Part shown: piece by piece, positions 8,725 to 17,116 of the stretch
How positions within the stretch are numbered: position 1 is the first letter of the stretch
How the letters are laid out: every line of letters starts with the position of its first letter
Origin: the human T2T-CHM13v2.0 reference genome, Homo sapiens
Direction: 5' to 3' (one strand)
NCBI RefSeq assembly: GCF_009914755.1
Contig: NC_060935.1
Length of the DNA: 64,000 nucleotides
The notes under the pieces: generated by a model
Database searches by the model: none
What the model was told of the DNA's origin: nothing
What the model saw: only the letters and a program-made list of their open reading frames with translations
Translations under genes and position numbers: made by a program

Positions 8725-9720
8725 GCTCTGAGTAGTTGTCATGTCTACTAATAATCAGGTTAGTGTCAGATCCTGGAAATGAGAGACTCAGTGGAGACGG
8801 TGCTATTTGGGAAGTCACAGCACAATCCCTCTGGTGATCCACTCTGAGCATCACGTGTTGGTCACACCTCCTAGGCTGAAGGGAGCCATGTTAGTAAGCC
8901 CTTAAAAATGTCAAATGGCTTCCCCCACCCCTTAATGCCAGCAGATTCTTATCCTGTGTTTTCTCAGCCATCTCCTTGGAGGTGCCTCCAGTCACTGAAA
9001 ACCTTGCTCAAGAGCCTATGTGTCCTTTTCGCTCTATTTCTCTGCATAGGGTCCAACGCTGTCCCTTGCCCCCTTTGTTCACCAATATAGGTCAGACCTA
9101 TCACAAAATAAATGGCACAGAGGCTTCCTGAAGACACACATATTTTGAGCACAGAACAGTGAGGCTGAGCCCTTATCAGCCAAGAGCGCTTGCAGAACCA
9201 CAGAGAATCTGCTGCACAATCTGCAAGCTGGTGCTCTCCCGAGCATGCATAGTAGGTCTCAGAGCACTGGGAAGCAATGCACATCCACGGTCCATTGTAA
9301 GTCACTGGCTTAGATATGTTATATTTAACAAAACATCTCAGCCGCATCGTGTTATAACAAGTCACGTTGTAAGGGATGGATTTTATCAAGTTGGTGTGTG
9401 TTTCCCACCAAACTCTATGAGATTGGTATTATCCCTATTTCACAGGTAAGGAAACTGAGGCAGAGGGTGACCCTCTCGCTCCCGTGCCTCACAGTAACAA
9501 GAGGAGCCAGAATTCAAACCCTGGCTTCTATCTCAGACCCTTACACTGAACTGGTAAACTCCTCACACACCCATGCCAACAAGAAGGATGACTGTTTTCG
9601 ATCTCATTGTATAATCTGGCAGATTCAGCACTCTGTTGTTTCCTGGTAAGCTCATCTCCTGACACCTGGGTAATGGGTGTTTTTTCCCAAAGTGTTTGCC
9701 CAGGCCAGCCACACCTAAAG

Positions 9721-10141
9721 TGTTGGGGTACATGGCAACATATCCAAGCTTATGTACGTGGCATTTGAGGTCAGGGCATGGAAAAATACGGAGGCACTGT
9801 GTGTATGTTATTTGTGCATAAGAATGTAACTCCTTGGCCCTAAAAACAGGACAAGGAGTGAAGTGTGTCATAAGGAACGCTGAAAACAGCCTCCTAAGAA
9901 TGTGGTTTGAGAGCTTTTGCAAGGCCGCAGGTGTCTCATGACCCCACCTCAAAAAGCCATCTAGTGGATGTTTGTGGTTTAACAATCCCTTTCAATAAAT
10001 ACTTGGCGGACAGATGCTAGGGCAGGCTCTCACAAGGGCGGGCTCTCAGAAGAGCTGCCCCCACCCCCTCTCCCAGCCCCCTTCAGCTGAAATTGTCTAA
10101 GAACTCATTCTTGGCGTTCACTGCAAGCTATAAGCTCTGCA
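9721..10141 (+). promoter_or_regulatory. 5' LTR (421 bp), likely MS4A15 promoter
   Basis: tgttggggta...gctctgca; roughly 90% identical by eye to 15901-16304; AATAAATA at 9994; GC box at 10036. Confidence 0.9.
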
Positions 10142-10215
10142 AGTGGTGACCCCGACGTGATCGCCTTGAAGTTACGCTTGAAGGAGGAAAACTCATCAAT
10201 TTTCGGGGAATCCCG
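10025..10215 (+). other. MS4A15: Probable non-coding exon 1 of MS4A15 (LTR + PBS + leader; start approximate)
   Basis: Retroviral major splice donor CCG|GTAAGG at 10215/10216; no ATG in 10017-10215; position fits my recollection of a ~20-kb annotated gene span. Confidence 0.7.
10144..10161 (+). promoter_or_regulatory. Primer-binding site complementary to tRNA-Trp(CCA)
   Basis: TGGTGACCCCGACGTGAT, 2 nt after the LTR end; reverse complement of tRNA-Trp 3' end AUCACGUCGGGGUCACCA. Confidence 0.93.
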
Positions 10216-10284
10216 GTAAGGGACAGTCCTGACTCCCGTCAGGAGGATGGGACCCACGCGTAAAATATCAGGGGTTGGATTATC

Positions 10285-11760
10285 ATGGGTCAAGAAATGA
10301 CCAAAGAACAGAAAGTGTTTTTTAAAAACAGTGCGACAGCTACTTAAGGCTAACCAGTGCACTGCAGAGCCTGGAGCTCTACACAACGCTATGATCTTAA
10401 TTCGGCAGGAATGCCCTTGGTTTCCTGATCAAGGAACCTTAGACTTGAGTTATGGAGCAGGTAGGTCACTGCCTGAAAACAGGATGTGAGCAAGGTCATT
10501 TTACTGAGGTTATTGTTTTGACCACCTGGGCGCCGGTACACTCGGTGTTGTATCCTCTTTATCTGCCAGATTGCAGTGGGTCAGACCGCCCGTCTTTGCC
10601 TGAAGGGAATTCAGGAGGTTTAAAGGAGAAGGAAGAACAGGAGCCAACCAGGACAGCGGGAGGCGGGCGGGGGGTCCTCTCTCTACTTCATTCCCTTCTG
10701 TAGGGCATAAGGAGGATATTTTTTTCTAGTGATCATGAGGACGGACCGGAGCCTTTTCCTCCCCCTATAGAAAAGCCATTGCCCTCTTTTCCTCCACCCT
10801 TAAAGGGACCTGTATTCGTTGGCCCCGTTCAGGCAATGGCGCCTCCCATCCCCCTTGAGGAGTCTGGAGGCCGCCCAAGAGATGGTTCTTGGATAAGACC
10901 TCCAGTCAGTGAATATCTATATGATCGGGTGGCCGTGTCCTCAACGCCAACTCCTCGTCAAACTTTCTTAGTAGAGGGGTGCCTCCAAGAGGGACTTAGG
11001 AAGGGAGACTCTGAGGCGCTTTTTGGCGCATTCCCTGTTATTGTTCAAAGCAACAGGAGATGGCATGAGAGTTTGCCTTTTACTGTCTTTAAAGAGTTAA
11101 AGAAAAGTATCCGTGAAAACAGTGTACATTCACCGTTTACGAAGGAGGTGATTGAGGCTCTGGGAAATGGCTATAAGATGACTCCACATGATTGGAAAAC
11201 TTTGGTAAATGTTTTGGTTTCAGCTGCAGAATATACTGTGTGGTGGAGTGAGTACAGTGATTTAGCCATGCAGCAGTCCTTGCAAAATTTGGATAATAAT
11301 ATCCCGATACAACTTGATATGCTATTGGGAACAGGGCCTTTTGCTTCAGCTCAGACTCAGGGTCAAGCAGGTGGCCATCTATTTCCTCAATGCTCACAGC
11401 TAGCAATACAAACATAAAAAAAAAAAATCCCGTAAGACAATCCCAGGGTTCCTTTATAACAGTTAAACAAGGTGCCACAGAAACATACATTAAATTTATC
11501 AACCGACTGCAAGCTGCAATTGAAAAACAGGTATCCCATCCTAAGGCTACCAAACTTCTTATGTTACAATTGGCTTTTGAAAAAGCAAATAAGGATTGTC
11601 AGACAGCAATAACTCCAGTCTAAGCCACTGCCACTGAAATCAGTGTGTTTATTAAAGCATGCCAAAATATAGGCACTACAACTCATCTGACTCAAACTTT
11701 TGCTGCAATAATGACCGGAACCACATATTGTAATTGTGACCTAACCAGGCATATGGCAAA
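10285..11760 (+). pseudogene. gag: gag remnant (MA, CA, start of NC), frameshifted
   Basis: MGQEMTKEQKVF start; MA motif CPWFPDQGTLDL; CA in ORFs 10779..11417 (FKELKKSI, TPHDWKTL) and 11390..11623 (VKQGATETYIKFINRL, AFEKANKDC); degenerate knuckle YCNCDLTRH. Confidence 0.9.
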
Positions 11761-13930
11761 AATAACCCTGCTACTGTTTTCCTACCTTTAAGCAAAAAAC
11801 AATTTCATACTCTTCTAGCTTGTGCTCTTGATTGGCAAATCGCAATAGCTGACTTTATTGGTAATATCAGCTTTCATTTACCAGCCTCTAAGCTCCTGAA
11901 CTTTTTACAAACTGTGCCTGTTAAATTTGTATCTATTGTTGTTTCTGAGCCCTTGCTTCATGCCACTACTGTCTTTACAGATGGTTTAGGAAAAACTGGA
12001 AGAGCAGCTACAGTGTGGCAATAGGCCATGCAAAAATGGCAGCACAAAATCCAGGAACATTTTAAAACCACGCAACAGGCAGAGTTAGGTGCCCTGATAT
12101 TGGCCTTACAAACTTTTCCTCACCAAGACATAAACATAGTTAGTGATTCCGCTTATGCGGTGTGTAGTATTACTCATTTAGATCTTGCACATGTGAAGGG
12201 CATTACTAATGAACCCCTACTAGCTTTGTTTCTTGCAGCGTAAGAGCTCCTCTGTGACCATCATTGTGGGGAAAAGAAAGAGAGATCAGACTGTTACTGT
12301 GCCTATGTAGAAAAGGAAGACAAAAGAAACTCCATTTTGATCTGTACAAAGAAAAATTGTTATGCTTTGAGACGCTGTTAACCTGTAACTTTAGCCCCAA
12401 CCCTGTGCTCACAGAAACATGTGCTGTATTGAATCAAGGTTTAAGGGATTTAGGGGTATGCAGGATGTGCCTTGTTAACTATATGTTTGCAGACAGTATG
12501 CTTGGTAAAAGTCATCGCCATTCTCCATTCTCTATTAACCAGGGACACGATGCACTGCGGAAAGCCGCAGGGACCTCTGCCCAAGAAAGCCTGGGTGTTG
12601 TCCAAGGTTTCCCCCGACTGAGACAGCCCGAGATATGGCCTCGTGGGATTGGAAAGACCTTACCATCCCCTAGCCCGACACCCGTAAAGGGTCTGTGCTG
12701 AGGAGGATTAGTAAAAGAGGAAGGCCTCTTTGTGGTTGAGATAAGAGGAAGTCCTCTGTTTCCCACATGTCCCTGGGAATGGAATGTCTCGGTGTAAAGC
12801 CGACTATTCGTTCTATTCTGAGATAGGAGAAAACTGCCCTGTGGCTGGAGGCGAGATATGCTGGCAGCAATACTGCTCTGTTACTCTTTACTAACTGAGA
12901 TGTTTGGGTAAAGAGAAACATAAATCTAGCCTACGTGCACATCTGGGCACAGTACCTTCCCTTGAACTTATTTATGATGCAGATTCCCTTACTCACATGT
13001 TTTCCTGCTGACCTTCTCCCCACCATCACCCTGTTCACCCTGTTCTTCTGCCGCACCCCCCATGCCAAGATAGTGAAAATAGTAATCAATAAACCCTGAG
13101 GGAACTCGGAGACCGGCGCCGGTGCAGTTCCTCGCATGCTGAGTGTGCCGGACCCCTGGGCCCACCGTTCTTTCTCTGTACTTTGTGTCTTATTTCTTTT
13201 CTCAGTCTCTTGTCTACACCTGACGAGAAATACCCACAGGTGTGGAGGGGCAAGCCCCCTTCGATCATCACCCTCTTTACATCACACATATTCACTCTCA
13301 TTCTGGGCTACCTGGTCCCTTATCAGAAGGGAACGCTCGAGCTAATGCTCTGGTACACACACAGATGTGGTTTGCAGACTCTCCTGCTTTTTTGCGAATT
13401 CAAGCTGATCATGCTTTTTTTCCATCAGAACGCCTGCAGTCTTAAACAACAGTTTCATTTAACACTTGCTCAAGCTCACATGATTATTAAAACTTATCCT
13501 GATTGCCAATGGCATTCTCTTTCCCCTTTTTCCTTAGGACTTGGTGCCAACCCACGAGGTCTGGTGCCTAATGCTATCTGGCAAACTGATGTTACTCAGT
13601 ATCCACCCTTTGGACGTTTTTAAATCTCTCCATGTTACTGTGGACACTTATATAGACCTAATACATGCTATCCCCATGCCGGAGAAAAAACTAAAGATGC
13701 AGTTGCTCATTTGTTTGAATCTATTATGACTCCAGCCCTTCCACAAACTGTAAAACTGATAATGGCCCCTGCTATCTTAGTGCTCACTTTGGCTATGCAT
13801 TGCAACTTTGGCAATAAGATCAACATACAACCCAAGACTGGGATTCCCTGTAACTCAACCAGTCAGGCCATTATTAAACAAGTTCATCAAACTCGTAAAG
13901 TATATCTTAATAAACAAAAAAGGGGGAATA
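11761..13930 (+). pseudogene. pol: pol remnant: RT connection, RNase H, N-terminal/core integrase; interrupted by LTR5
   Basis: DWQIAIADFIG, TVFTDG, QQAELGA, NIVSDSAY, HIHSHSGLPGPLSEGN, NPRGLVPNAIWQTDVT; stops and frameshifts; no protease or RT palm. Confidence 0.9.
12265..13263 (+). mobile_element. HERV-K(HML-2) solo LTR, LTR5A/5B type (999 bp)
   Basis: Starts tgtggggaaaagaaagagagatcagactg, ends gcaagcccccttcg; TSD ATCAT (12260-12264 / 13264-13268); AATAAA at 13088. Confidence 0.93.
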
Positions 13931-13980: not shown

Positions 13981-14172
13981 ATGACGGTGATGACTCAGAA
14001 GGCACCTGACATTACCTGGGGACAGCTAAAGAAATTGGATCAACAGGCAACTATCCGGCTTGCAGGCATAGAAGCCTCTGTAACTGCAGAGAATCAGTTT
14101 CTTATGTATCTGGGGGTAATTGGGAAAACTTCTGAGAAAGTAAGACGACATAGATGTTGGGGTGGCTGGTAA
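13981..14172 (+). pseudogene. Rec-like / Env-leader ORF (63 aa from ATG 13981)
   Basis: APDITWGQLKKLDQQA matches the HML Rec/signal-peptide core (HML-2 PTWAQLKKLTQLA); donor AAA|GTAAGA at 14139/14140. Confidence 0.7.
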
Positions 14173-15899
14173 TTCTTGTCCTTTGCCAAGTGGGATCACC
14201 TCAAGAACATGTTTACTGGAGTCATGTTCTAAATCCCCCTGTTTTTAATGTTATTTCATGGTGGGATGCTGACCTGCCTTTGTCATCTAATGATACTTCT
14301 TGGACGAGAGGTCGATGGATGCCCCTGTCTTACCCTTCAGTGGAAAATTTGGGATGGATTAAACTTAATAACTCCTTGGTTGTATTGTCTAGTAATCCCC
14401 CTCTTTGTTTTTCCACAATAGCACATGCTAAGTGTGTTACTCTTATTCTTCAGGAGTATCTTTACTGTCAGCCTAAAAGGGATGCTAAGCTTGCAAACTT
14501 GACCTTTATTTCTGCTATTACCACTAATCTTACTGAGGTCTCTAATGAAGCTACACAAGTGCCTGATCTTCCTATATGCCGTCTGAGTAGGGACTGGGGA
14601 TATAAGTTTGAGGCCATTCAGTGGTCTCCATCCAGACAGCCTGCGCCATGTCAAGGGCCTCTGTTTGATAATGGCACCTTACTTGATTGGAGTCCCCATG
14701 GTTATCTTATGTCTGCAAATCAGACTATTGGATCTGGGAGTCCCCAGTAAGTCTATCACCTGGTCAGAGTACAGGCTTTCAGGACCAATATTACAACTAA
14801 AAGGGAAACAAGCTTTAAGCCCTGCTCATACCCAAATTTGGAGATTAGAACTTCCTTTTTTTGAATGGGTTCTTTCACATGATGAGTATATTACTAGCAG
14901 TGGCAATTATACCCTCTGTTTCCATAATAATGTTACTGACACAGTTGTGATTTGTACTACGCACTCTTATATACTTTTGTTTGGGCAAAGTGTTCCTAAT
15001 ATAGAGCAGAATCAATCCTTTTATAGTAGTAAAGTCTCTTCCAGTAGTTAGTATGCTACATGCCTGTCTCATCGAAATGTTACATAGTTAAATATAACCT
15101 ATGTCATGATCTTAAAATGGCGTGCAGAATTTTGGCTGCCTGTAAATTTAACCTGGAGCTGGGAAGGAGATTCAACCCTGCAGCTGTTTAGAAAAGCACT
15201 GTCTCATACTCAGAAAAAAAGATTTCTGGCCACTTTAATTGCTTTTTTAGTCTCAGCTATTATTATATTAGCAACTGCTGCTACTGCAGCTGCTTTTTCT
15301 AACAAAATCTATTCACACAGCTTCAGTGGTGAACCACATGGTATATAATGTAACCCATAAATTTCAAAAACAGGTAAATATTAATCAAACTACTCTGTCT
15401 CACCTGGAGGCTCTTAAAGCTGCAGTTGAATGGCTGGGGGATCAGCAGCTGGCATTCATTACCCATCAACATTTATATTGTAATTGGCAATATAATTCTA
15501 TCTATGTCACACCTCTGCCATATAATAGCTCCCAATATGCTTGGGAGAGAGTGAAAACACACCTGCAAGGGGCTTATCACAATCATTAGTCTTCTCAAAT
15601 TCCCACTCTTAAGTGTAAATTTAAAAAACAACTTAAAAAATGGTCACAGCAATTATAAACAAATACCCTTCAACAATTATAAAAAGGCTTTCAATAGTTA
15701 AACCCAAACACTTAGTTATCTGGGTTAAACATACACATTTGGGTAATGGCCAATATACTTATTCTTTTTTGTATTTGTTTGCTAGGTATGTACAAATGGC
15801 TCTGTGCTGTCACTCAGTGCATCTATAACCAAGAAAAAGCAATAAAAGCTTACCTCGCTTTAAATAACCAACATACTCTAAAAATTAAAGAAGGGGGAG
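14154..15899 (+). pseudogene. env: env remnant (SU + TM), frameshifted
   Basis: HVYWSHVLNPP, LLDWSPHG, FWLPVNL, furin-like QKKR followed by fusion peptide FLATLIAFLVSAIIILATA, EWLGDQ, CNWQYNSIYVTP. Confidence 0.9.
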
Positions 15900-15900
15900 A
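15881..15900 (+). promoter_or_regulatory. Polypurine tract
   Basis: aaaattaaagaagggggaga immediately before the 3' LTR TG. Confidence 0.9.
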
Positions 15901-16304
15901 TGTTGAGGGTGCACGGCAACATATCCAAGCTTATGTACATGGCATTTGAGGTTGGGGCATGGAAAAATACTGAGGCACTCTGTGTATGTTATTTATGCAT
16001 GAGAATGTAACTCCTTGACCCTAAAAACAGGACAAGGATTGAGGTGTGTAATAAGGAACGCTGAAAACAGCCTCCTAAGAAGGTGGTTTGAGAGCTTTTA
16101 TAAGGTCATAGGTGTCTCATGACCCTCAAAAAGCCATCTAGTGGATGTTTGTGGTTTAACAAGCTCTTTCAATAAATACTTGGCGGACAGATGCTGGGGT
16201 GGACTCTCTCAGAAGAGCTCCCCGCCACCCCCGCTCGAGGCCCACTCAGCTGGAATTGTCTAAGAACTCATTCTTGGCATTCACTGCAAGCTATAAACTC
16301 TGCA
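15901..16304 (+). mobile_element. 3' LTR (404 bp)
   Basis: tgttgagggt...actctgca followed by TSD taaag; AATAAA at 16171. Confidence 0.93.
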
Positions 16305-16891
16305 TAAAGTTTCCATATCTACACATTTCTTGGCTACATCAATGGTAATTGCTTGGGTGGCCAAATAGAAAGCTTCCCACAGCAGGTGGGAAGTTCCCAT
16401 ACCCAGGGGAATTATTGACGCTAGCTCAATAGTTGAGAGCTGAGAGGCAGGAAGTGGCAGTGAGTCCTGGTCTCGGGGTGAAGAAACCGGTACTCTAGCT
16501 AAGCTCTACCTTGCACTAGCTGTGTGTCCTTAGGTAAGTCACTTGCCCTTTCTGGGAAAAGAAGGGCATTTAAATAAACACTCCTCCAAAAGGAGCTTTC
16601 CACATAATATAGCTCAGAGATTAAGAGCAAGGCCTCTGAAACCAGAGAGACTAGAATTCAAATCTCAGTCTTACCCCACCTACAGGCCCTTGACCTCAGA
16701 CATCTTTCGCTTCTCTGAGTCTCAGCTTCCCCAGCTTTGATGAGAGCGTTTGGGGCCATACTGGCAGGGCTGCAGTAAGCAAGGGAAGTAGGCACGTTGC
16801 TTATCAACTAAAAAGCTTTATGCACATGGGTGACAATCATCATTGCCATTATTATCTCCCAAGCCTTTGTTTCCCAGGCTCTCTGAGCACG

Positions 16892-17116
16892 ATGTCTGCA
16901 GCTCCCGCCAGCAATGGAGTGTTTGTTGTCATCCCGCCAAACAACGCCGGTGGCCTCTGCCCACCTCCGGCCATTCTGCCCACATCCATGTGCCAACCTC
17001 CAGGGATTATGCAGTTTGAGGAGCCACCGCTGGGGGCACAGACACCAAGGGCCACACAGCCACCTGACTTGCGGCCCGTGGAGACATTCCTGACAGGAGA
17101 GCCCAAAGTTTTGGGG
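16892..17116 (+). CDS. MS4A15: MS4A15 coding exon 1 (aa 1-75, cytoplasmic N-terminus)
   Basis: MSAAPASNGVFVVIPP...FLTGEPKVLG; acceptors at 16863/4 and 16877/8; donor GGG|GTAAGA. Confidence 0.95.

What the first reader, a model, noticed from the sequence alone, without database searches (positions are those of the whole stretch)
10144..10161. Perfect tRNA-Trp primer-binding site in a HERV-K-type provirus, carried in the putative MS4A15 5' UTR
Seen: TGGTGACCCCGACGTGAT is 18/18 complementary to the tRNA-Trp(CCA) 3' end, with both CpGs intact although the LTRs have diverged ~10% by eye and all viral genes are broken. Established: HML groups are typically tRNA-Lys primed; this exact PBS is the avian sarcoma/leukosis virus type; 3' tRNA fragments and PBS-specific KRAB zinc fingers repress ERVs through the PBS. 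Inference: (a) the primer switch could let this LTR escape Lys-PBS repressors, favouring co-option; (b) MS4A15 mRNA would carry a perfect target for tRF-3 of tRNA-Trp, a possible tRNA-fragment control of a host gene.
Basis: partly seen in the sequence, partly recalled or inferred. Interest (0 to 1): 0.8.

Follow-up and report, generated by a model that had tools for sequence, protein, structure and literature searches.

The report
Known ERV-Hako tRNA-Trp site in MS4A15
The perfect tRNA-Trp primer-binding site is real and lies in the first, non-coding exon of MS4A15, but it is the ordinary ancestral site of a small retrovirus family (ERV-Hako) described in print in 2025, and nothing here shows that it does anything for the host gene.

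Summary
TGGTGACCCCGACGTGAT at 10144-10161 is 18/18 complementary to the human tRNA-Trp(CCA) 3' end plus CCA. It sits 2 nt after the 5' LTR of a 6.6-kb class II provirus and inside RefSeq MS4A15 exon 1.

- **Family:** the element matches ERV-Hako (Frith 2025, Mob DNA 16:11), not LTR3/HERVK3. [quoted passage not shown]
- **No local primer switch:** all 13 other related loci I found carry a Trp-type PBS (0-4 mismatches).
- **No special conservation:** the PBS is not better kept than its flanks, and 4 of 13 printed loci keep both CpGs. A perfect site is expected by chance at roughly 0.1-0.3.
- **Small addition:** exon 1 runs from the LTR start site through U5, the PBS and the leader to the family-conserved viral splice donor.

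Control of MS4A15 by a tRNA-Trp 3' fragment, or escape from Lys-PBS zinc fingers, remains untested speculation. Verdict: already known, low interest.

The parts
9716..9720 (+). Target-site duplication TAAAG, 5' copy
   Evidence: Same 5 bases directly before the 5' LTR and directly after the 3' LTR
9721..10141 (+). 5' LTR (421 bp, TG...CA). AATAAA/TATA-like box at 9994-9999. Annotated MS4A15 TSS at 10024.
   Evidence: Aligns with 15901-16304 at 91.5% identity. TSS from the hub's annotation table.
10019..10052 (+). 16-nt tandem duplication at the TSS, found only in this 5' LTR; it creates GGGCGGG at 10036-10042
   Evidence: TRF: period 16, 2.1 copies. Absent from the 3' LTR and from all 12 other distinct family copies aligned.
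10024..10215 (+). MS4A15 exon 1 (non-coding) = R-U5, PBS and leader up to the viral splice donor. No ATG inside.
   Evidence: Hub's annotation table; ATG scan
10144..10161 (+). Primer-binding site, 18/18 to the tRNA-Trp(CCA) 3' end
10214..10221 (+). Viral major splice donor G|GTAAGGG, used as the MS4A15 exon 1 donor
   Evidence: GTAAG at this position in 11 of 13 distinct family copies, this one included. Exon end at 10215 from the annotation.
10285..11623 (+). gag remnants: ATGGGTCA start, Gag_p10, Gag_p24 and Gag_p24_C, in broken frames
   Evidence: Pfam E 1e-9, 2e-31 and 9e-17. Start conserved across the family. CA best matches PDB p27 chains 2v4x and 2kgf.
12025..12243 (+). RNase H fragment. 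Protease and RT gave no Pfam match; only about 400 nt lie between the gag end and this fragment.
   Evidence: Pfam RNase_H E 3e-9
12265..13250 (+). Nested high-copy repeat inside the provirus, probably a solo LTR of another ERV family. Starts TGTGGGG and is flanked by ATCAT. The end coordinate is approximate.
   Evidence: 1560 first-look candidates and 40 scored matches elsewhere at 86-93% identity. Boundaries read.
13417..13510 (+). Integrase zinc-binding domain fragment
   Evidence: Pfam Integrase_Zn E 1e-5
13990..15589 (+). env remnants: weak Rec-like N-terminus, and TM (GP41 family) at about 15299-15585
   Evidence: Pfam GP41 E 2.5e-16; HERV-K_REC E 9e-4, below the curated cut-off
15887..15900 (+). 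Polypurine tract AAAGAAGGGGGAGA directly before the 3' LTR
   Evidence: Sequence printed
15901..16304 (+). 3' LTR (404 bp)
16305..16309 (+). Target-site duplication TAAAG, 3' copy

Best explanation
The site is the ancestral tRNA-Trp primer-binding site of an ERV-Hako provirus, a class II, betaretrovirus-like family. The provirus inserted in sense orientation just upstream of the first coding exon of MS4A15 in a catarrhine ancestor.

Transcription starts in the 5' LTR about 30 nt after its AATAAA/TATA-like box. It runs through U5, the PBS and the leader, and the retrovirus's own major splice donor (10215|GT) is joined to MS4A15 exon 2. The rest of the provirus is skipped. The PBS is therefore carried passively in the 5' UTR.

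Its perfect state is most likely chance survival in a locally well-kept 78-nt stretch. It is not evidence of a PBS-specific host function.

Shown here: complementarity, anatomy, family-wide Trp PBS, conserved splice donor, and no excess conservation. Inferred: that the site is passive.
For: 1. **The site itself.** It matches tRNA-Trp 18/18 and lies 2 nt after the LTR end.
2. **Provirus anatomy.** 421/404-bp LTRs, TSD TAAAG, PPT, and gag/RNase H/IN/TM fragments.
3. **Family-wide Trp PBS.** A genome search with 10040-10460 gave 37 matches. 13 other distinct loci span the LTR-PBS junction, counting the two chrX copies as one. All 13 carry a Trp-type PBS with 0-4 mismatches, mostly CpG-to-TpG/CpA changes.
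5. **Viral splice donor.** GTAAG is conserved in 11 of 13 copies at the exon 1 end.
6. **No special conservation.**
   - Summed differences to 12 other copies put the PBS window at rank 163 of 723 18-nt windows.
   - The stretch identical to the chrX copy runs 10100-10177, well beyond the PBS.
   - Both PBS CpGs are intact in 4 of 13 printed loci.
   - This copy keeps 14 of 38 family CpG sites; other copies range 0.16-0.50.
   - Derived changes are 22 in the 5' LTR and 22 in the 3' LTR, with 2 unresolved.
7. **Chance estimate (my arithmetic).** The private-change rate of this copy is about 6%. That gives 0.94^18, about 0.33, for 18 unchanged bases, or about 0.08-0.3 once CpG decay is allowed for. 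With 14 loci, 1-2 perfect sites are expected and 2 independent ones are seen.
Against: - The 71 scorable columns of 10100-10177 hold 0 private changes in this copy, against about 6% in U3 and after the splice donor. Nominally 0.94^71 is about 0.012. However, the window was chosen after the fact as the longest identical run, so after allowing for about 10 such windows this is only a hint of local constraint.
- An 18-nt tRF-3 with exactly the complementary sequence is listed in published small-RNA tables (PMC7330628 table and PMC12025293 appendix; passages only). A potential ligand therefore exists.
- Primate orthologues could not be examined with these tools.
Confidence: 0.82

Rival explanations
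1. MS4A15 mRNA is repressed, by slicing or translational block, by the 18-nt 3' fragment of tRNA-Trp (tRF-3a) pairing with the perfect PBS in its 5' UTR. The relic of viral priming would then act as a host regulatory site.
For: - Perfect 18/18 complementarity inside annotated exon 1 (annotation table).
- An 18-nt tRF-3 of this exact sequence is listed in two papers' tables.
- A review passage (PMC9926655) reports that 18-nt 3'-tRFs block ERV reverse transcription, that 22-nt 3'-tRFs silence ERV mRNA through the PBS, and that a tRNA-Lys3 3'-tRF associates with AGO2 and targets the HIV PBS.
- No private changes in 10100-10177.
Against: - There is no PBS-specific conservation: the unchanged stretch extends 44 nt upstream and 16 nt downstream of the PBS.
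- 11 of the 13 other loci have decayed PBS at ordinary rates.
- Complementarity ends at 18 nt, so a 22-nt tRF-3b would have its first 4 bases unpaired.
- The site is in a 5' UTR and is predicted to be mostly base-paired: mean unpaired probability 0.27, against 0.43 for the 250-nt 5' end.
- A search for MS4A15 together with 'tRNA-derived' found 0 papers.
- Other MS4A15 transcripts in the annotation table start at 16878 or 17032 and would lack the site.
Confidence: 0.06
2. Because it uses a Trp rather than a Lys PBS, the provirus escaped PBS-Lys-binding KRAB zinc fingers (ZNF417/ZNF587). This left its 5' LTR transcriptionally open and favoured its capture as the MS4A15 promoter.
For: - ZNF417 and ZNF587 bind PBS-Lys in human ERVK and recruit KAP1/SETDB1 (PMC8931336; passages read).
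- That study's 'Trp' PBS entry was the HERV17-type sequence, not this one (supplement file 5 passage). No zinc finger for the true Trp PBS has been looked for there.
Against: - The Trp PBS is shared by all 14 loci, and only this one is reported as a gene's TSS. The PBS type therefore does not single out this copy.
- What does single it out is position, in sense orientation about 560 bp upstream of coding exon 2, together with a copy-specific 16-nt duplication at the TSS.
- From general knowledge (recalled): most co-opted LTR promoters are solo LTRs with no PBS at all.
- Absence of a Trp-PBS zinc finger is not shown.
Confidence: 0.04
3. The 78-nt unchanged stretch 10100-10177 (end of U5, PBS, start of leader) is under host constraint as a promoter-proximal or 5' UTR element of MS4A15. 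The constraint would be independent of tRNA complementarity.
For: 0 private changes in 71 scorable columns, against 18/287 in U3 and 15/236 after the splice donor. The stretch lies at +77 to +154 of the annotated TSS.
Against: - The window was chosen post hoc.
- The chrX copy, which is not known as a promoter, also has 0/71 there. This suggests the family's close copies simply have few differences in this part, or that it is chance.
- Exon 1 as a whole has 7/147 private changes, and the 5' vs 3' LTR relative-rate count is 22:22.
Confidence: 0.08

Closest known systems
ERV-Hako (Frith 2025, Mob DNA 16:11; Dfam DF003576559 LTR and DF003576584 interior, as listed in that paper's Table 1)
   Same: - Class II genes.
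- LTR about 400 bp.
- 5-bp TSD.
- tRNA-Trp PBS.
- Low copy number: about 14 loci with the junction here, against about 16 interiors in the paper.
- The paper itself says a Hako relic holds the MS4A15 TSS.
   Different: Nothing essential. Not stated in the sections I read:
- The RefSeq exon carries the intact 18/18 PBS.
- The exon ends at the viral splice donor.
- This 5' LTR has a private 16-nt duplication at the TSS.

I could not align to the Dfam consensus.
Avian leukosis/sarcoma virus and EAV PBS (tRNA-Trp)
   Same: Identical 18-nt PBS sequence (PMC4635179 table; PMC5029493 primer)
   Different: The avian viruses are alpharetroviruses. This provirus has betaretrovirus-type Gag_p10 and a p27-like capsid. 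The shared PBS reflects the conserved tRNA-Trp 3' end, not kinship.
HERV-K (HML) groups, e.g. HML-6 = LTR3/HERVK3
   Same: Class II, betaretrovirus-like gag, pol and env fragments. The capsid also matches HERV-K CA structures at E about 2e-8.
   Different: [quoted passage not shown]
- The capsid matches the p27 chains 2v4x and 2kgf better than it matches HERV-K CA.
- Frith reports that RepeatMasker does not recognise Hako LTRs.
PBS-directed silencing of LTR elements by 3' tRNA fragments, and PBS-binding KZFPs (ZFP809, ZFP961, ZNF417/587)
   Same: The same kind of target sequence, an 18-nt PBS, is present both in the DNA and in a transcript
   Different: Those systems were shown for Pro and Lys PBS of ERVs and HIV. 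Nothing has been shown for a Trp PBS or for a host mRNA carrying one in its 5' UTR.

Membership tests
ERV-Hako | Group II (betaretrovirus-like) coding remnants | tested here: met
   Pfam Gag_p10, Gag_p24, Gag_p24_C, RNase_H, Integrase_Zn and GP41. Best PDB matches are capsid p27 chains, then HERV-K CA.
ERV-Hako | LTR of about 401 bp | tested here: met
   421 bp (including a 14-nt private insertion) and 404 bp, both TG...CA
ERV-Hako | Target-site duplication of 5-6 bp | tested here: met
   TAAAG on both sides
ERV-Hako | tRNA-Trp primer-binding site | tested here: met
   18/18 here, and 14-18 of 18 in 13 other loci
ERV-Hako | The copy that holds the MS4A15 TSS | tested here: met
   Annotated TSS 10024 lies in the 5' LTR (annotation table). 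The paper's statement was read.
ERV-Hako | Sequence match to the Dfam Hako consensus | not testable with these tools
   No Dfam or RepeatMasker library is at hand
HERV-K(HML-6) / LTR3-HERVK3 | tRNA-Lys PBS | tested here: not met
   The PBS is Trp here and in all related loci
HERV-K(HML-6) / LTR3-HERVK3 | LTR similar to LTR3 | not testable with these tools
   No repeat library. Frith reports that Hako LTRs are unrecognised by RepeatMasker.
Functional tRF-3 target site in a host mRNA | Full complementarity to an observed tRF-3 | tested here: met
   18/18. The fragment is listed in the tables seen.
Functional tRF-3 target site in a host mRNA | Site present in the mature mRNA | tested here: met
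   By RefSeq annotation only (exon 1, 10024-10215). No transcript data were examined.
Functional tRF-3 target site in a host mRNA | Site conserved above its flanks | tested here: not met
   Rank 163 of 723 windows. The identical run extends over 10100-10177. Orthologues were not available.
Functional tRF-3 target site in a host mRNA | AGO/tRF binding and a regulatory response | not testable with these tools
   Needs CLASH/CLIP and reporter assays
KZFP-targeted PBS | KZFP/KAP1 occupancy at the PBS | not testable with these tools
   The published screen used a different 'Trp' sequence

The most novel reading that the evidence does not exclude
The intact Trp PBS in the MS4A15 5' UTR is a working target of the 18-nt tRNA-Trp 3' fragment. 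This would make MS4A15 the first host gene whose output is tuned by a tRNA fragment through a co-opted retroviral primer-binding site. It could tie MS4A15 levels to tRNA-Trp processing.
Probability: 0.05. Interest if true: 0.7.

Novelty: already known. Interest (0 to 1): 0.18.

Why it matters
As it stands this is a confirmation. It independently recovers ERV-Hako's Trp priming and its donation of the MS4A15 promoter from the T2T sequence.

It adds the detail that the host exon is exactly the viral R-U5-PBS-leader unit, ending at the viral splice donor.

It would matter only if the PBS proved to be a functional tRNA-fragment or zinc-finger target in a host mRNA or promoter. No evidence here supports that.

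One practical point: published PBS-KZFP screening used the HERV17-type sequence as 'Trp', so the true Trp PBS remains unscreened.

Tried and rejected
- **Chance 15-mers.** Two non-tRNA 15-mer hits (L006 on chr9, L013 on chrX) were checked as possible further Hako relics. They have no similarity to the provirus and were set aside as chance; the backwards control gave 5 hits.
- **Constraint on the co-opted LTR.** I looked for purifying selection on the 5' LTR by polarising LTR-LTR differences with six close copies. The result was 22:22, so there is no signal.
- **CpG protection at the promoter.** This copy retains 14 of 38 family CpG sites, which is within the family range.
- **Literature on MS4A15 and tRNA fragments.** 0 papers.
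- **Zinc fingers for a Trp PBS.** The supplements of PMC8931336 have only a HERV17-type 'Trp' entry.
- **Primate orthologues, RepeatMasker/Dfam names, CAGE, small-RNA and ChIP data.** No tool here holds them.
- **5' UTR folding.** The fold is a weak indication only.

Full report
**1. Observation**

TGGTGACCCCGACGTGAT is at window 10144-10161 on the + strand. It is the only match in the window even with 3 mismatches allowed.

In the whole assembly the exact 18-mer occurs three times: here and in two chrX places. The backwards control gave one hit.

The 15-mer without the leading TGG occurs ten times:
- Five abut the 3' end of genes that ARAGORN calls tRNA-Trp(CCA). The gene in L008 ends ...gttcgaatcacgtcggggtca.
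- Three are this locus and the two chrX copies.
- Two (L006, L013) have no similarity to the provirus and are chance matches. The backwards control for the 15-mer gave 5 hits.

With the CCA added after transcription (established knowledge), the site is 18/18 complementary. The complementarity ends at exactly 18 nt, as for a genuine PBS. The same 18-mer is tabulated as the ALV/EAV-HP PBS (PMC4635179 table passage) and is used as an ALV/EAV primer (PMC5029493 passage).

**2. What it belongs to**

Direct repeats define a provirus:
- 5' LTR at 9721-10141 and 3' LTR at 15901-16304, both TG...CA.
- Identity is 91.5% over 402 aligned bases, K2P 0.0905.
- That gives 21-45 My for rates of 2.2e-9 to 1.0e-9 per site per year.
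- The flanking duplication is TAAAG.
- A polypurine tract precedes the 3' LTR.

The PBS starts 2 nt after the 5' LTR. Stop-to-stop frames carry Gag_p10, Gag_p24, Gag_p24_C, RNase_H, Integrase_Zn and GP41 matches. No protease or RT match was found, and only about 400 nt separate the end of gag from the RNase H fragment. The capsid N-terminal domain matches the PDB 'capsid protein p27' chains 2v4x and 2kgf best, then HERV-K CA. The element is therefore a broken class II, betaretrovirus-like provirus.

**3. The family**

Searching the genome with 10040-10460 gave 37 matches. Besides this locus, 13 distinct loci span the LTR-PBS junction. The two chrX copies are identical over 717 nt and count as one; L026/L027 and L028/L029 are the same loci.

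All 13 have a Trp-type PBS:

| Mismatches | Loci |
|---|---|
| 0 | chrX |
| 1 | L023 |
| 2 | L015, L021, L022, L026, L028 |
| 3 | L018, L025, L031 |
| 4 | L019, L020, L024 |

These counts come; L031 was counted by eye. Most changes are CpG-to-TpG/CpA.

A literature search for MS4A15 with LTR led to Frith 2025 (PMC11905727). I read the abstract, Table 1, the whole 'ERV-Hako' section and Discussion passages. It defines ERV-Hako as follows:
- group II, with an LTR of 401 bp and an interior of 7085 bp;
- TSD of 5-6 bp and a Trp primer;
- about 47 LTR and about 16 interior copies;
[quoted passage not shown] Every feature I could test fits. The LTR3/HERVK3 label does not fit: the PBS is not Lys. I could not align to the Dfam consensus. 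A search for 'ERV-Hako' found only this paper and its preprint.

**4. How the PBS comes to be in the mRNA**

By the annotation table, exon 1 of NM_001098835.2 is 10024-10215 and the coding sequence starts at 16892 in exon 2.

- The TSS lies about 30 nt after the LTR's AATAAA (9994-9999).
- The exon ends at G|GTAAGGG. GTAAG is present at this position in 11 of 13 distinct family copies, this one included (L026 and L028 lack it). It lies upstream of the conserved gag start ATGGGTCA at 10285.

The exon is therefore the viral R-U5-PBS-leader unit. It ends at what is by position the viral major splice donor (inference), joined to the host acceptor at 16864, about 560 bp beyond the 3' LTR. Exon 1 contains no ATG.

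**5. Is the perfect PBS more than chance?**

- *Family CpG sites.* These are columns with CG in at least 2 copies, or a CG/TG/CA mix. This copy keeps 14 of 38, against 0.16-0.50 in the 12 other distinct copies. The two PBS CpGs are CG in 8 of 13 and 5 of 13 copies. Both are intact in 4 of the 13 loci printed.
- *Conservation rank.* Summed differences between this copy and 12 others put the PBS window at 29, and 163 of 723 windows are as low or lower. The lowest window (8) lies in U3 at 9792. The stretch identical to the chrX copy runs 10100-10177.
- *LTR polarity test.* Polarising the 46 LTR-LTR differing columns of a family alignment with six close copies gives 22 derived in the 5' LTR, 22 in the 3' LTR and 2 unresolved. 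This alignment shows more differing columns than the 34 of the pairwise alignment, because of the duplication region.
- *Private changes of this copy.*

| Region | Private changes |
|---|---|
| U3 | 18/287 |
| Exon 1 | 7/147 |
| 10100-10177 | 0/71 |
| After the donor | 15/236 |

From about 6% private change, 18 unchanged bases have probability of about 0.33, or about 0.08-0.3 allowing for CpG decay (my arithmetic). Two independent perfect sites among 14 loci is what that predicts.

The 0/71 stretch is nominally unusual (about 0.012). However, it was picked post hoc, it is not PBS-specific, and the chrX copy also shows 0/71.

**6. The two inferences**

(a) *Escape from Lys-PBS zinc fingers.* ZNF417 and ZNF587 do bind PBS-Lys (PMC8931336 passages). 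But the Trp PBS is shared by all Hako loci and so cannot explain why this one became a promoter. That study's 'Trp' entry is the HERV17-type sequence (supplement passage), so the true Trp PBS has not been screened there.

(b) *tRF-3 control.*
- The concept rests on work summarised in a review passage (PMC9926655).
- An 18-nt tRF-3 of exactly the complementary sequence is listed in two papers' tables.
- No paper links MS4A15 with tRNA-derived RNAs.
- In a fold of exon 1 plus the first 58 nt of exon 2, the PBS is mostly paired (0.27 unpaired, against 0.43 overall). This is weak evidence.

I put (b) at about 5-6%.

**7. Verdict**

The extra details are minor: exon 1 is the viral leader unit up to the viral donor, the site is 18/18 intact, and there is a private duplication at the TSS. 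The regulatory ideas remain open but unsupported.

Limits:
- No orthologues, repeat library, expression, small-RNA or ChIP data were available.
- Copy counts are lower bounds.
- Supplementary figures of Frith 2025 were not seen.

Noticed in passing
window 10019-10052: A 16-nt tandem duplication (2.1 copies, 88% matches) sits exactly at the annotated MS4A15 TSS (10024). It is present only in this 5' LTR, and absent from its own 3' LTR and from the 12 other distinct family copies aligned. It creates GGGCGGG at 10036-10042, which looks like a GC box (motif recalled). The bases at 10019 and 10024 are also derived in this LTR. This may be a copy-specific change linked to promoter capture.
   Followed up: partly
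window ~12265-13250: A high-copy repeat is nested in the provirus between the RNase H and integrase fragments. It gave 1560 first-look candidates and 40 scored matches elsewhere at 86-93% identity. It starts TGTGGGGAAAAG and is flanked by ATCAT on both sides, so it looks like a solo LTR of another ERV family. From recall it resembles a HERV-K(HML-2) LTR5-type LTR; this was not tested.
   Followed up: partly
L016 / L017 (G000:C23:70217780-70218186 - and C23:70130465-70130854 +): Two inverted chrX Hako copies about 87 kb apart are identical over the 717 nt compared, and both carry the perfect 18/18 PBS. This is presumably a recent inverted segmental duplication.
   Followed up: no
L015, L018, L019, L021 (PBS position 6): Four of the closest family copies share TGGTGC... 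(A to C at PBS position 6). This is a non-CpG change that mismatches tRNA-Trp. A shared non-CpG PBS variant in separate insertions is unexpected if the PBS is recopied from the tRNA in each replication cycle. It was not explained.
   Followed up: no
window 11623-12025: Only about 400 nt lie between the end of the capsid C-terminal domain match and the RNase H match. Nucleocapsid, protease/dUTPase and reverse transcriptase appear to be deleted in this copy.
   Followed up: no
PMC8931336 supplement file 5: The published human PBS-KZFP screen lists 'Trp' as the HERV17/HERV3-type sequence. Frith 2025 assigns that sequence to tRNA-Arg, so the genuine Trp PBS of ERV-Hako seems not to have been screened against KZFP ChIP-seq data.
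   Followed up: partly
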